Source of the DNA: a virus
UHGV virus genome: UHGV-0309502
Length of the DNA: 35,430 nt
Direction: 5' to 3' (one strand)
Shown here in pieces: positions 17,198 to 23,566 of this stretch (its first letter is position 1; each line of letters begins with the position of its first letter). The position numbers were made by a program, and so were the translations under genes. A model generated the notes under the pieces. It did no database searches and had not been told where the DNA came from. It saw nothing but the letters and a program-made list of their open reading frames with translations.

Positions 17198-17797
17198 ATG
17201 CAAATTGGCTATATTCGTGTGTCAACAAACGACCAGAACACGGATTTACAACGCAATGCACTGAACTGCGCAGGATGTGAACTGATTTTTGAAGATAAAA
17301 TCAGCGGAACGAAATCAACCAGACCGGGATTGAAAAAACTGCTCAGAACGCTATCAGAAGGAGATACGCTGGTTGTCTGGAAGCTGGACAGACTGGGCAG
17401 AAGTATGAAACACCTGATCACGCTTATTGAGGAATTGCGGGAAAAAGGTGTTAATTTCCGTAGTCTGACGGACAGCATTGACACGTCAACACCCATGGGG
17501 CGTTTCTTTTTTCACGTCATGGGGGCTTTAGCCGAAATGGAACGTGAATTAATTGTAGAGCGTACACTGGCCGGGCTGGCAGCAGCACGCGCACAAGGAC
17601 GCATTGGCGGACGTCGCCCGAAGTTGACAAAAGAACAACACGAGCAAATAGCGAGGCTGATTAAAAACGGTCATGACAGGAAACAACTGGCGATCATTTA
17701 CGACATCGGCATATCGACGATTTATCGTTATCACCCTGTAGGCGATATACAGGCTGAAGAAACAACCAGACAGACTCAGGAAAATGAAAACCGCTAA
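17198..17797 (+). CDS. serine DNA invertase (Hin/Gin/Cin/Pin family)
   Basis: 199 aa; IGYIRVSTNDQNTDLQRNAL, TLVVWKLDRLGRS, MGRFFFHVMGALAEMERELIVERTLAGLAAARAQGR and C-terminal HTH closely match recalled Hin/Gin. Confidence 0.9.
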   Translation: MQIGYIRVSTNDQNTDLQRNALNCAGCELIFEDKISGTKSTRPGLKKLLRTLSEGDTLVVWKLDRLGRSMKHLITLIEELREKGVNFRSLTDSIDTSTPMGRFFFHVMGALAEMERELIVERTLAGLAAARAQGRIGGRRPKLTKEQHEQIARLIKNGHDRKQLAIIYDIGISTIYRYHPVGDIQAEETTRQTQENENR

Positions 17798-17816
17798 TCT
17801 GACCATTAGCGGTTTT
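17787..17816. terminator. bidirectional terminator hairpin between invertase (+) and tail operon (-)
   Basis: Perfect 12-bp stem AAAACCGCTAAT / ATTAGCGGTTTT with 6-nt loop, overlapping the invertase stop codon. Confidence 0.55.
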
Positions 17817-17823
17817 GCGTTAA

Positions 17824-18318
17824 TCAAAACAGCCCTTTAACGGAGCTGGCCGCGCTGTTAAGAGATGATGTCACTTTATCTTTGAAGCCGGACAGCATAT
17901 CGCTGAACGATGAGGATTGCAGGCGCTCCCGCAAATCCTCATCACAGCGTTCAAGAGTCAGTGAAAATTCTATCTTTTTCGCCTTACCATAGCGATCAAA
18001 CTCGGAACGGGTCGTATTCGTTTCAGTCAGTACATACATGCCGTAAATCTGCCCGACACCATCAATCAGAGGCCAGGGGCGTCCTGTATATGCCTGCGTG
18101 GTCAGCAACGAAAGCGACACTTCGCCACCTGTAATTTCAGGATAAAGCACGCCGGAAAGCACAATGCGATCATCACCTGCGCCGATATACTGCCAGCCTG
18201 CTGAACGGTTAACGCGTTCATTTTTCACATGCCGCCAGCTTTTGTTTTGCTGTAACTGCTGATGCGGCAGCGTGCGCAGCTCAAAAACAAACATGCCGTA
18301 GATCATCATCATGGCCAT
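17824..18318 (-). CDS. U: tail protein U family
   Basis: 164 aa; last gene of the minus-strand tail operon after T; MMIYGMFVFELRTLPHQQ N-terminus resembles recalled gpU. Confidence 0.7.
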   Translation of the reverse strand: MAMMMIYGMFVFELRTLPHQQLQQNKSWRHVKNERVNRSAGWQYIGAGDDRIVLSGVLYPEITGGEVSLSLLTTQAYTGRPWPLIDGVGQIYGMYVLTETNTTRSEFDRYGKAKKIEFSLTLERCDEDLRERLQSSSFSDMLSGFKDKVTSSLNSAASSVKGLF

Positions 18319-18324
18319 GACTCC

Positions 18325-21355: not shown

Positions 21356-21657
21356 AACCGAATAAAATCGCGTGACGACATTTTTTTAATCATCACTTCA
21401 TCCAGTCGTGGCGAGGTCACGCGAGGCAACAGCGTGAACATGGTATCCGCTTTCAGATTCAGCACATCAGACAGCGACAGACCACGCAGGGATCCCGCCT
21501 GCTCAATAGCCCCGGTGATCTCCACATATGTGATTTTTTCGCCACCACGCTCAATTGGCCGGGAAAGTTTTACACCACGTTCGACAGCCATATCCTCACC
21601 TGCCGTCACATCATCCGCTACGGTGTTATTCCGGGTTTCAGTATCGATATCTTTCAT
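21283..21657 (-). CDS. E: tail assembly chaperone E
   Basis: 124 aa; between tail tube and tape measure genes; frameshift partner frame present. Confidence 0.7.
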   Translation of the reverse strand: MKDIDTETRNNTVADDVTAGEDMAVERGVKLSRPIERGGEKITYVEITGAIEQAGSLRGLSLSDVLNLKADTMFTLLPRVTSPRLDEVMIKKMSSRDFIRLCAVAVNFMSEPDSGAKSVQETAA

Positions 21658-21712
21658 CAGTTGTCTCCTTTTCAGTCAGAGGCGACGCACTGCGCCGCCT
21701 GCATATTACTTA

Positions 21713-22225
21713 TCAGCCAAGCCCAAGCGCGGAACGAATGCGGTCAGGCACAATGTCCTTGCCGTCCTTCCGGTAGATGTGGTTCAACAGGTCGATTTCC
21801 AACAGCGGGCGATCGTTAACGCTCAGCTTGTAGTAGGTGTTTTTGACAGCGTAAGTGTGTGATGTGGCTTCGCCCTGTTTGGCCTCCCCCATATCAATTT
21901 CCGTCACACGCCCGCGCATCTCGATTTCATACAGATCGCTTTCTGCATCGGTGTAGTATTCACCCGCAAAACGCAGCAGCGTGCCGTCAATCGTGCCGCC
22001 ATATTTAAGGAACAGCGCACGAACAGCTCCCCCCATAACAAAACTCGCATCAAGCGCGGAGTCGTCCAGACCGAGATCAATACTTACCGCCCCCATCATG
22101 CCACCACCACGATAGCTGTCGGTTTTGCGCGTCAGTTTGGGCGGCGTGACGGACGTCACCTTACCCACTTCGTTTTCACCATCCACAAACAGCGTAAAAA
22201 AGCGAAGATGTTTTGGTACAGCCAT
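21713..22225 (-). CDS. FII: tail tube protein FII
   Basis: 170 aa; follows the sheath gene; size and synteny. Confidence 0.85.
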   Translation of the reverse strand: MAVPKHLRFFTLFVDGENEVGKVTSVTPPKLTRKTDSYRGGGMMGAVSIDLGLDDSALDASFVMGGAVRALFLKYGGTIDGTLLRFAGEYYTDAESDLYEIEMRGRVTEIDMGEAKQGEATSHTYAVKNTYYKLSVNDRPLLEIDLLNHIYRKDGKDIVPDRIRSALGLG

Positions 22226-23409
22226 CAGGCACCTCCCAGCACCGCAAATGCGGGACCAAAGAATTCATCAGTAAACGACTGGTAAAGCTCCATGTCTTCC
22301 AGCGGGGGAACAGGCGTATATTTGTAGCGAATACGCACGCGCCCCTGACGTAAATTCGTGGTGCCGTTATCCACCACGTCATACCAGCACGACGCCCCAA
22401 TCAGTTTCCCGGCAGTAACCAGTGAATCCAGTTTTGCCCTGATGGCACTGATAACATCTTTCACGTTCGCAGGCGTCAGTGGACTGTCGATGGTTTCAAA
22501 CTGCGCTTCCGCAATTGAATCAGCCAGCACCTGTGCGGTTCGGGTATACACCTCAAAGATGTAGGCGTTCGTTTCCGGTGTGCGGTTGCCCCAGAAGCGG
22601 AACCCGTTGCGACGAATAATGGTCGTGATTTCTTTGTTGTTGAGGCTATTGGCATCGCTGTCTTCGGCCTGCAACGACCAGAACACATGCCTGGACATCC
22701 CCAGCACATTTTTAACCGGAACGTTGGACAGTGATTTGTGCCATCCCTGCTCATGGTCAATGTACGCACGAAGGCCGCACGCATAGGCAGGCGCGGGGAA
22801 CGTTTCGTTTTTGCCACTTTTCGGGTTGTAGGCGATGAAGTCCGGCCATAAGAGCATCACCTCACGTTCGTTGAATTTCTGGCGGTAGGTAATCGCCTCA
22901 GCCATCGTGTTACAGCCGTGACATGAGGCATACACAAACGCGCGCAGTTTACCCGCAATCACGCACAGGGATTTTGTCACCGCCTCCGTGTCCAGCTCCG
23001 GCGCGGCCAGAATACGCGGACGGTATCCGATGCTTTCATCCTGCTCTGCAACAAGCAGCGCATACATCCCCGTATAGCTGCCGTCAGATTCAGAACCACC
23101 GATAACCAGTTGATCCTGCGTCTTTCCGTCTTCTTCTTTGTGTTCAGCCACGCGAACGACGATCACCTTTGTGCTCACCTGGTCTGCGATGGCCTTAAGC
23201 GCACGATAAAGCGTCCCCGTTGTCCCGCATTTTCCCAGCACGTCATTGACGCGGGTCAGCAGTGTGGGCTTGTTCAGCGGGAACAGCTTCGCGTCCGCAT
23301 CATCCGCCGTTGCCACGATACCGATAACGCTGGAATCAACATCGTTAATCGCTGTTACCAGGTCGGTATTTTCCGTAACACGGGCACCATGAAAACGAGT
23401 TTCACTCAT
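22225..23409 (-). CDS. FI: contractile tail sheath protein FI
   Basis: 394 aa; first gene of the minus-strand tail operon; size and synteny. Confidence 0.85.
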   Translation of the reverse strand: MSETRFHGARVTENTDLVTAINDVDSSVIGIVATADDADAKLFPLNKPTLLTRVNDVLGKCGTTGTLYRALKAIADQVSTKVIVVRVAEHKEEDGKTQDQLVIGGSESDGSYTGMYALLVAEQDESIGYRPRILAAPELDTEAVTKSLCVIAGKLRAFVYASCHGCNTMAEAITYRQKFNEREVMLLWPDFIAYNPKSGKNETFPAPAYACGLRAYIDHEQGWHKSLSNVPVKNVLGMSRHVFWSLQAEDSDANSLNNKEITTIIRRNGFRFWGNRTPETNAYIFEVYTRTAQVLADSIAEAQFETIDSPLTPANVKDVISAIRAKLDSLVTAGKLIGASCWYDVVDNGTTNLRQGRVRIRYKYTPVPPLEDMELYQSFTDEFFGPAFAVLGGA

Positions 23410-23566
23410 AGCTTTAGCCCCTTGTATCCGTTAAATGATTCGGCAACAATCATCACCCACCACGCGCGTAATCTCACCCCTGTGCCGTTCTCCCGATCCG
23501 GCGACAACAAAAAGCAGTAACCCCCTCCGCACGCACATGCGACCATGCCGCACAGGGAGGGAACAG

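What the first reader, a model, noticed from the sequence alone, without database searches (positions are those of the whole stretch)
17787..23566. Tail sheath/tube/tape-measure operon inverted relative to canonical P2, separating D
In P2 the FI-FII-E-T-U-D genes are one rightward operon on the same strand as H and ogr. Here FI-FII-E/E'-T-U are on the minus strand, converging on the invertase at a perfect 12-bp-stem hairpin, while D and ogr remain on the plus strand and diverge from FI across a 157-bp intergenic region. D therefore needs its own promoter. I found no exact TGT-N12-ACA Ogr-type site in that region by eye. The inverted block starts next to the invertase gene, so a past invertase-mediated secondary-site inversion is one possible origin.
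Basis: partly seen in the sequence, partly recalled or inferred. Interest (0 to 1): 0.45.

Follow-up and report, generated by a model that had tools for sequence, protein, structure and literature searches.

The report
Inverted tail operon, normal for P88-like phages
The flipped tail sheath/tube/tape-measure gene block is real, but it is the fixed, inherited gene order of a whole branch of P2-like phages (P88 and relatives, present in about a fifth of complete E. coli genomes), and the separated gene D very probably shares one activator site with the flipped operon, so the finding is ordinary.

Summary
U, T, E/E', FII and FI lie on the minus strand (17824-23409). They converge on the invertase gene at a perfect 12-bp hairpin (17787-17816) and diverge from D/ogr across 157 bp.

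It is not peculiar to this sequence. The same layout is found in:
- every Xuanwuvirus (P88-like) record;
- 1103 of 5426 complete E. coli genomes;
- four more Peduoviridae genera (Senquatrovirus, Novemvirus, Reginaelenavirus, Reipivirus) and Serratia phage KSP20.

FI and D trees separate inverted from canonical phages 100/100. None of 1387 E. coli genomes carrying this lineage's U or D has a canonical U-to-D junction.

The invertase-origin idea is not supported. The four other genera, and the near-identical PhiR44_2, have the inversion but no invertase next to U. Fels-2 and ENT90 have the invertase with the canonical order. Both real crossover sites lie upstream of the invertase gene, and no convincing pseudo-sites flank the block.

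D probably does have its own promoter. A one-mismatch Ogr-type dyad (TCT-N12-ACA, 23489-23506) aligns with exact TGT-N12-ACA sites in relatives. It matches the window's own P/O site over 14 bases. On both sides a -10-like hexamer ends 49 nt from its centre. I read this as a bidirectional Ogr-dependent late promoter built like P2's PP/PO (inference). Interest is low.

The parts
17787..17816 (.). Perfect 12-bp-stem, 6-nt-loop hairpin between the convergent invertase and U genes. It is a candidate bidirectional intrinsic terminator; the invertase stop codon lies inside the left arm.
   Evidence: Sequence; terminator scan; folds at -16.9 and -15.9 kcal/mol, z -4.2 and -3.4.
17824..18318 (-). gpU homologue (tail protein)
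   Evidence: Pfam Phage_P2_GpU, E 7.7e-39.
18325..21141 (-). gpT homologue (tape measure protein). P88 annotates the start three codons later, at 21132.
   Evidence: Pfam PhageMin_Tail, E 1.6e-56; P88 annotation; sequence.
21119..21657 (-). gpE (21283-21657) and the E+E' frameshift product. The candidate -1 slippery heptamer A_AAT_TTT is at 21334-21340, and the E' frame ends at TGA 21119.
   Evidence: Pfam Phage_TAC_7; sequence read; ORF 21119-21355; P88 annotates both products.
21713..22225 (-). gpFII homologue (tail tube)
   Evidence: Pfam Phage_tube, E 6.9e-46.
22225..23409 (-). gpFI homologue (tail sheath)
   Evidence: Pfam sheath domains; 98-99.5% identical to Xuanwuvirus FI.
23410..23566 (.). 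157-bp divergent FI/D intergenic region, the proposed bidirectional late promoter region.
   Evidence: Sequence. A cross-genus alignment shows conserved blocks in an otherwise diverged spacer. No sigma-70-type promoter match lies inside it.
23489..23506 (.). Ogr-type activator dyad with one mismatch, TCT-N12-ACA, centred at 23497.5. The extended form is GTTCT-N12-ACAACAAAA at 23487-23512.
   Evidence: the extended 14-base motif occurs exactly only here and at the P/O region. It aligns with exact TGT-N12-ACA sites in 3LV2017, KSP20 and SEN5.
23541..23546 (+). -10-like hexamer GACCAT of the proposed D promoter. It ends 49 nt from the dyad centre. The predicted start is about 23553, followed by the Shine-Dalgarno sequence GGGAGGG and ATG 23567.
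   Evidence: Position table; conserved as (G/A)A(C/T)C(A/C)T in five genera. The start site is inferred, not measured.
23449..23454 (-). -10-like hexamer GATGAT of the proposed FI promoter. It ends 49 nt from the dyad centre on the other side. The predicted start is about 23442.
   Evidence: conserved as GATGAT/GATTAT/GAATAT/AATGAT across genera. Inferred.
23567..24676 (+). gpD homologue (baseplate hub / late control D), full length.
   Evidence: Pfam Phage_GPD; 50% identical to P2 gpD, residues 19-369 against 15-384; start codon conserved in relatives.
24719..24979 (+). Ogr/Delta-type zinc-finger late activator, immediately downstream of D on the same strand.
   Evidence: Pfam Ogr_Delta. Homologues sit downstream of D in T5282H, ST16-OXA48phi5.4, 3LV2017, KSP20 and SEN5, and the four Cys are conserved.
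17198..17797 (+). Hin/Gin-family serine invertase (context). It belongs to the tail-fibre inversion cassette, not to the inverted block.
   Evidence: Pfam Resolvase + HTH_7. It occupies the same slot in canonical Fels-2 and ENT90 and is absent in PhiR44_2.
15503..17142 (.). The genuine invertible tail-fibre segment (context). The crossover sites are at 15503-15528 and 17117-17142, and the 229-nt inverted-repeat arms at 15512-15740 and 16906-17134.
   Evidence: these sites are the top-scoring gix-like matches in the window.
4125..4142 (.). The matching activator dyad in the P/O divergent region (comparison site), TCT-N12-ACA. TAATCT lies on the P side and CATCAT on the O side, ending 49-50 nt from the centre.

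Best explanation
The window is a P88-like (Xuanwuvirus) member of the P2 family. The minus-strand FI-FII-E/E'-T-U block is an old, fixed inversion of the tail-shaft operon that marks a subclade of enterobacterial Peduoviridae. It is not a recent or invertase-driven event, nor a switchable segment.

One breakpoint fell between U and D. The other fell upstream of the F-operon activator site. That placed the dyad-symmetric Ogr binding site next to the 5' end of D.

The 157-bp FI/D gap now works as a bidirectional Ogr-dependent late promoter (inferred). A single dyad, TCT-N12-ACA centred at 23497.5, lies about 55 bp from a leftward start near 23442 (FI-U operon) and from a rightward start near 23553 (D-ogr operon). 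This is the geometry of P2's PP/PO pair.

The FI-U transcript and the long O-to-tail-fibre/invertase transcript converge and stop at the 17787-17816 hairpin.

Shown: gene identities, the arrangement, its distribution and fixation, and conservation and co-variation of the dyad and the -10-like hexamers.

Inferred: the start sites, Ogr dependence, terminator function and the order of evolutionary events.
For: Distribution of the arrangement:
- 13 phage records cover at least 80% of 16900-24800 collinearly at 91-95% identity.
- 1103 of 5426 complete E. coli genomes do the same.
- FI and D are adjacent on opposite strands in every listed record with D at least 62% or FI at least 55% identical. These include phiT5282H, ST16-OXA48phi5.4, the Kp48xx series, 3LV2017, KSP20 and SEN4/5.
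- Eight other genera are canonical.
- Neighbour-joining trees of FI and D split inverted from canonical phages in 100/100 bootstraps.
- 0 of 1387 E. coli genomes have a U-to-D junction.

Promoter:
- Every phage has exactly one T[GC]T-N12-ACA in the FI/D gap and one in the P/O gap.
- The TCT variant occurs in both gaps of the window, T5282H and ST16-OXA48phi5.4. P88 also has TCT in its FI/D gap; its P/O gap was not examined.
- TGT occurs in both gaps of 3LV2017 and SEN5, and in the FI/D gap of KSP20, the only one sequenced there.
- The N12 spacer varies freely, even between the window and P88.
- GTTCT-N12-ACAACAAAA is exact only at 4123-4148 and 23487-23512.
- nAnnAT-type hexamers end 49-50 nt from the dyad centre on all four sides.
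- The predicted starts are 111 bp apart, as are P2's mapped PP and PO starts at 3016 and 3127.
- There is no sigma-70-type promoter match in the gap.
- An Ogr homologue is encoded just downstream of D in all members.
Against: - No transcript data exist for any member, so the start sites and Ogr dependence are inferred from geometry.
- The window's dyad has a mismatch (TCT) in the half-site that defines the P2 consensus.
- The predicted D leader is short, about 14 nt.
- The sampling of canonical outgroups in the trees is small (5 and 4 taxa).
- The physical mechanism of the original inversion is unknown.
- I could not read Casjens & Grose 2016, which may already describe this subcluster's gene order.
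Confidence: 0.72

Rival explanations
1. One reading: the adjacent Hin/Gin-type invertase once recombined secondary (quasi) sites and flipped the FI-U block.
For: - The block starts 27 bp after the invertase stop codon.
- Quasi-site inversion is known for Cin and Gin (my own knowledge).
- Weak half-site resemblances (13/24) exist at 17820 and 23538.
- PhiR44_2 keeps about 59 nt of the invertase 3' end, so invertase loss does occur within the genus.
Against: - Four other genera with the same inversion have no invertase or invertible segment next to U.
- Fels-2 and ENT90 carry the invertase in the same slot with a canonical F operon.
- Both real crossover sites are upstream of the invertase gene. 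An event using a real site would have flipped the invertase too, so flipping only FI-U needs two quasi-sites.
- No AAACC-NN-GGTTT core lies at either boundary.
- The 13/24 scores are matched by about 0.2% of all window positions.
Confidence: 0.06
2. The block is a currently active, switchable (phase-variable) invertible segment, or the orientation is an assembly artefact.
For: An invertase is adjacent and a real invertible segment lies 700 bp away.
Against: - None of 1387 E. coli genomes has the opposite orientation.
- The orientation is identical in independently sequenced phage isolates.
- No inverted repeats flank the block.
Confidence: 0.01
3. The inversion is real and ancient, but D is not Ogr-activated from a shared dyad. 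D would instead be expressed from a weak constitutive promoter, from a start inside the FI leader region, or by another factor, and the conserved dyad serves FI only.
For: - The dyad would be conserved anyway as the FI (PF) activator site.
- The D-side -10-like hexamers are weak (GACCAT, GATCCT).
- The predicted leader is short.
Against: - D-side hexamers and an adjacent CG-rich block are conserved at a fixed distance in five genera, while the flanking sequence diverges.
- The same layout occurs at P/O, where P2 uses one site for two promoters.
- No sigma-70-like promoter is detected in the gap.
- D is an essential tail gene that must be made late, together with FI-U.
Confidence: 0.2

Closest known systems
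Escherichia phage P88 and other Xuanwuvirus (P884B11, 500465-2, 520873, 503458, PhiR44_2, Chuche, Citrobacter phiSM)
   Same: - 91-95% nucleotide identity across 16900-24800.
- Identical gene order and strands: U-T-E-FII-FI on the minus strand and D on the plus strand across about 157 bp (an ogr ORF is annotated only in some records).
- The invertase precedes U in most of them.
   Different: - Minor differences only: IS insertions in 520873 and 503458, and no invertase cassette in PhiR44_2 or Chuche.
- This window's invertible segment holds one tail-fibre assembly gene where P88 has two.
Bacteriophage P2 F operon (FI-FII-E/E'-T-U-D) and its PF late promoter
   Same: - The same genes, with D 50% identical.
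- E/E' frameshift pair present.
- ogr downstream of D.
- Activator site of the TGT-N12-ACA type about 55 bp upstream of the start site.
   Different: - In P2 all seven genes form one rightward operon with U and D overlapping. Here FI-U is inverted and D-ogr forms a separate divergent unit.
- The window has no V promoter gap, because S and V overlap. Late transcription therefore appears to run from two divergent regions rather than from P2's four promoters at three sites.
P2 PP/PO divergent late promoter pair
   Same: - One activator-binding region lies between two divergent late starts 111 bp apart (3016 and 3127).
- The FI/D gap has one dyad with -10-like hexamers placed for starts about 111 bp apart.
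- It shares 14 specified bases with the window's own P/O site.
   Different: - It controls tail-shaft and hub genes instead of packaging and head genes.
- The left half-site reads TCT rather than TGT.
- Function is untested.
Hin/Gin/Cin/Pin invertible segments (Mu G, P1 C, Salmonella H)
   Same: A family member operates next door on the tail-fibre segment 15503-17142, with 26-bp crossover sites and the invertase gene just outside.
   Different: The FI-U block has no flanking crossover sites and no inverted repeats, and shows a single orientation in 1387 genomes. It is not such a segment.
Senquatrovirus SEN4/5, Novemvirus phiT5282H, Reginaelenavirus 3LV2017, Reipivirus ST16-OXA48phi5.4, Serratia KSP20
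   Same: - The same inverted FI-U block with divergent D-ogr.
- A dyad and -10-like hexamers at the same spacing.
- A hairpin at the U end was seen in SEN5 and T5282H, the only two tested.
   Different: - D is 62-76% and FI 55-75% identical.
- No invertase.
- Three of them carry the exact TGT-N12-ACA.

Membership tests
P2-like (Peduoviridae) tail-shaft/late gene set | Homologues of FI, FII, E(+E'), T, U, D and an Ogr/Delta zinc-finger activator | tested here: met
   Pfam hits for all of them; the E' frame and a slippery heptamer were read; D is 50% identical to P2 gpD.
P2-like (Peduoviridae) tail-shaft/late gene set | Canonical P2 organisation: FI through D as one co-directional operon with U abutting D | tested here: not met
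   FI-U lie on the minus strand and D on the plus strand, 157 bp from FI. Compare P2.
Xuanwuvirus (P88-like phages) | High nucleotide identity to P88 and other genus members | tested here: met
   91-95% identity over 89-96% of the 7.9-kb query. Only this region was tested, not the whole genome against the ICTV 70% genus criterion.
Xuanwuvirus (P88-like phages) | Same gene order and orientation as the type phage around the tail-shaft genes | tested here: met
   P88 annotation: invertase(+), U-T-E'-E-FII-FI(-), D(+).
Hin/Gin-type invertible DNA segment (applied to the FI-U block) | Block bounded by inverted 26-bp crossover sites | tested here: not met
   No core match at either boundary. The best scores are 13/24 against 17-18/24 for the genuine sites. 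No flanking inverted repeat was found.
Hin/Gin-type invertible DNA segment (applied to the FI-U block) | Both orientations occur among copies | tested here: not met
   0 of 1387 E. coli genomes have the U-to-D orientation.
Ogr/Delta-dependent late promoter | Dyad TGT-N12-ACA centred about 55 bp upstream of the start site | tested here: inconclusive
   The window has TCT-N12-ACA, one mismatch, at 23489-23506. It aligns with exact TGT-N12-ACA sites in 3LV2017, KSP20 and SEN5, and the same TCT variant occurs at the window's P/O site. The distance to the start is inferred from the -10-like hexamers, not measured.
Ogr/Delta-dependent late promoter | No good -35 element; -10-like hexamer present | tested here: met
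   No sigma-70 consensus match in 23410-23566. GACCAT and GATGAT end 49 nt from the dyad centre.
Ogr/Delta-dependent late promoter | Transcription requires the phage Ogr protein | not testable with these tools
   Needs reporter or transcript experiments. An Ogr homologue is encoded at 24719-24979.
Intrinsic (rho-independent) terminator, bidirectional | Stable stem-loop followed by a U-run on each strand | tested here: met
   12-bp stem, -16.9 and -15.9 kcal/mol, with U-runs on both strands. Termination itself was not tested.

The most novel reading that the evidence does not exclude
In this subclade all late transcription may run from just two compact bidirectional Ogr-dependent regions (P/O and FI/D), each built on a single dyad about 55 bp from both starts. 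On this reading the inversion was tolerated and fixed because P2-type activator sites are dyad-symmetric, so the relocated PF site could immediately drive D. A side effect is a short Ogr-activated D-ogr transcript, which would be a tighter positive feedback loop than in P2. The parallel TGT-to-TCT change at both sites in one sub-branch would then reflect co-evolution with that branch's Ogr protein.
Probability: 0.5. Interest if true: 0.3.

Novelty: new member of a known kind. Interest (0 to 1): 0.15.

Why it matters
It matters little for discovery. The window is one more P88-like prophage with its genus-typical gene order.

Modest value:
- It shows that the textbook P2 late-gene map does not apply to a very common group of E. 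coli, Klebsiella, Enterobacter, Salmonella and Serratia prophages. FI/D divergence is a clean synteny marker for that clade.
- It gives a testable prediction of a second bidirectional Ogr-dependent promoter.
- It cautions annotators against reading invertase adjacency as causal.
- It also cautions against the spurious small ORFs that several records annotate inside the FI/D gap.

Tried and rejected
- Exact TGT-N12-ACA search: 4 hits in the window, fewer than the 8.35 expected by chance, and none in the late intergenic regions. The relaxed T[GC]T-N12-ACAA pattern alone is not enriched either: 7 hits against 9 expected. Only the extended motif and the cross-genus alignment are informative.
- Sigma-70 scan of the FI/D gap: nothing found.
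- Inverted repeats flanking the block: none.
- Search for gix-like pseudo-sites: only chance-level 13/24 matches.
- Ogr protein alignment, looking for residues that track TCT versus TGT: no clear pattern.
- Terminator scan in SEN5: nothing by the simple pattern, although folding shows a GC-rich hairpin at the U end.
- Literature: the P88, phiSM and SEN4/5 papers do not mention the inversion. Searches on Xuanwuvirus and on Peduoviridae plus inversion found nothing relevant. Casjens & Grose 2016 is not held.
- Several fetched loci never appeared in the Python sandbox, so the alignments were made with the alignment tools instead.
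Full report
**1. Observation**

The window is a P2-like phage genome.
- Q and P lie on the minus strand at 1263-4060.
- The long O-to-tail-fibre operon runs on the plus strand from about 4182.
- H is at 14437-15993.
- An invertible tail-fibre segment follows, then a serine invertase at 17198-17797.

| Gene | Coordinates | Strand |
|---|---|---|
| U | 17824-18318 | - |
| T | 18325-21141 | - |
| E | 21283-21657 | - |
| FII | 21713-22225 | - |
| FI | 22225-23409 | - |
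| D | 23567-24676 | + |
| ogr | 24719-24979 | + |

- An E' frame reaches 21119 behind a candidate A_AAT_TTT slippery site.
- D is a full-length homologue of P2 gpD, 50% identical.
- The FI-D gap is exactly 157 bp.
- The hairpin at 17787-17816 has a perfect 12-bp stem. It folds at -16.9 and -15.9 kcal/mol on the two strands (z -4.2 and -3.4) and has U-runs on both sides, so it looks like a bidirectional terminator.
- P2 has FI through D and ogr on one strand, with U abutting D.

**2. How common is the arrangement?**

A megablast of 16900-24800, which spans both junctions, gave these results:
- 13 phage records cover at least 80% of the query collinearly at 91-95% identity. They are P88, P884B11, 500465-2, 520873, 503458, PhiR44_2, Chuche and Citrobacter phiSM, some held as duplicate records. 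These phages are genus Xuanwuvirus where classified.
- 1103 of 5426 complete E. coli genomes hold it in one collinear place.
- The P88 annotation shows the identical order and strands.

tblastn with D and with FI against 50,697 phage records gave the following:
- Every listed record with D at least 62% or FI at least 55% identical has FI and D adjacent on opposite strands.
- The next-best hits, at 52% or less, have them co-directional and 4-5 kb apart.

Annotated records confirm the inverted layout in:
- SEN5 (Senquatrovirus);
- phiT5282H (Novemvirus);
- 3LV2017 (Reginaelenavirus);
- ST16-OXA48phi5.4 (Reipivirus);
- Serratia KSP20.

The canonical layout holds in:
- P2;
- Fels-2;
- ENT90;
- Yersinia 42.18;
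- ST13-OXA48phi12.1;
- Burkholderia phiE52237;
- Mannheimia 587AP1;
- Aeromonas LPM4.

Neighbour-joining trees of FI and of D separate inverted from canonical phages in 100 of 100 bootstraps. This fits a single old inversion, although outgroup sampling is small.

I also built a synthetic query that joins U to D as in P2. It found 1387 E. coli genomes with either half, but none with the halves co-directional and adjacent. The orientation is fixed. It is neither polymorphic nor an assembly artefact.

**3. The invertase idea**
- The four more distant genera have tail-fibre or tail-fibre assembly genes followed directly by U on the opposite strand, with no invertase.
- PhiR44_2, 93% identical to the window, has H, G and then U(-) with no invertase. 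Homology to the window restarts within the last 59 nt or so of the invertase gene.
- Fels-2 and ENT90 carry the invertase cassette in the same slot, after the tail-fibre genes, but followed by a canonical FI-to-D operon.
- The cassette is therefore an exchangeable module that sits at the end of the tail-fibre genes whichever way the neighbouring operon points.
- The genuine crossover sites (15503-15528 and 17117-17142) bound 229-nt inverted repeats, and both lie upstream of the invertase gene. An event using a real site would have flipped the invertase as well. Flipping only FI-U needs two quasi-sites.
- A scan for gix-like sites recovers the two real sites as top hits (18/24 and 17/24). It gives only 13/24 at each block boundary, a score reached by about 0.2% of all positions.

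I consider the invertase origin unsupported, though not strictly excluded for the clade ancestor.

**4. How D is probably expressed**

I aligned the FI/D gap across six lineages and the P/O gap across five.
- Each gap holds exactly one T[GC]T-N12-ACA dyad at an aligned position.
- In 3LV2017, KSP20 and SEN5 the FI/D site is an exact TGT-N12-ACA, and indeed TTGT-N12-ACAA.
- In the window, P88, T5282H and ST16-OXA48phi5.4 it is TCT-N12-ACA.
- The same split between TCT and TGT phages holds at the P/O site of each phage where that gap was examined (the window, T5282H, ST16-OXA48phi5.4, 3LV2017 and SEN5).
- The TCT phages form one sub-branch in both trees.
- The 12-nt spacer is free to vary, even between the window and P88.

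Within the window, the extended motif GTTCT-N12-ACAACAAAA occurs without mismatch only at 4123-4148 and 23487-23512.

On all four sides a hexamer ends 49-50 nt from the dyad centre, and these hexamers are conserved across genera:
- three fit the nAnnAT type: GACCAT for D, GATGAT for FI and CATCAT for O;
- the fourth, for P, is the -10-like TAATCT.

This places the predicted starts near 23553 and 23442, 111 bp apart. P2's mapped PP and PO starts (3016 and 3127) are the same distance apart around a single annotated activator site. No sigma-70-type promoter is detected in the gap.

My reading, which is inference and not measurement, is that the FI/D gap is a bidirectional Ogr-dependent late promoter. 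The inversion carried the dyad-symmetric PF activator site to the 5' end of D, where it could serve both directions. D-ogr is a conserved pair in all members, so the D transcript probably also carries ogr.

S and V overlap (12011-12014), and relatives likewise have no V-promoter gap. Late transcription in this clade may therefore run from only two divergent regions.

**5. Comparison with what is known, and novelty**

The window is a new member of a known kind: a P88-like Xuanwuvirus prophage with its genus-typical order.
- As a P2-family late cluster it meets the gene-content criteria but fails the canonical-operon criterion.
- As an invertible segment it fails both defining tests.
- As an Ogr-type promoter it meets the sequence and geometry criteria with one half-site mismatch. 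Functional dependence is untestable here.

The papers I could read on P88, phiSM and SEN4/5 do not comment on the inversion. The most likely place for a description, Casjens & Grose 2016, is not held. The arrangement has been plainly visible in public annotations since P88 was deposited.

**6. Verdict**

Its most interesting suggestion, an invertase-mediated origin and hence unusualness, is not supported. Interest is low (0.15). The only modestly new element is the predicted shared-dyad bidirectional late promoter, which is easy to test.

Noticed in passing
window 9015-10895 (+): A 626-aa ORF lies inside the late operon, between the lysis genes and R. It carries DUF1737, a SASA carbohydrate (sialate O-acetyl) esterase domain and DUF6645. 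This resembles the NanS-p-type esterases of Stx prophages and is probably a moron.
   Followed up: partly
window 4182-4217: The scaffold gene O probably starts at ATG 4215 (MANEKK...), not at the first ATG at 4182. Relatives align only from the second ATG. The conserved CATCAT -10-like hexamer (4179-4184) and the predicted start near 4189 overlap the first ATG.
   Followed up: partly
window 15503-17142: The genuine invertible tail-fibre segment is short and holds a single tail-fibre assembly gene (16000-16614, minus strand). In the present orientation, H (14437-15993, +) therefore has no co-oriented assembly gene. P88 has two, one per orientation.
   Followed up: no
window 17165-17182: An exact TGT-N12-ACA lies just upstream of the invertase start codon (17198). 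It is probably chance, since 8 such matches are expected per window.
   Followed up: no
L012 (PhiR44_2) 3335-3587; window 17739-17816: PhiR44_2 lacks the invertase and the invertible segment, yet it keeps roughly the last 59 nt of the invertase gene plus the hairpin. This indicates that the cassette has been lost or replaced within the genus.
   Followed up: partly
window about 23526-23536 and 4091-4100; alignments A1 and A2: A conserved CG-repeat block (CGCGCGCG or similar) sits just upstream of the -10-like hexamers on the D side and on the P side in five genera. Its role is unknown.
   Followed up: no
L001 10173-10304; L012 9194-9307; L003 20707-20859: Different records annotate mutually inconsistent small 'hypothetical protein' ORFs inside or overlapping the FI/D gap. 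These are probably spurious calls over the promoter region.
   Followed up: no
window 25000-31000: GC content drops to 0.40-0.47 across the integrase, immunity and early region, against about 0.55 in the late genes. P88 annotates a hok/gef-type toxin downstream of its D gene, in the region that corresponds to this one.
   Followed up: no
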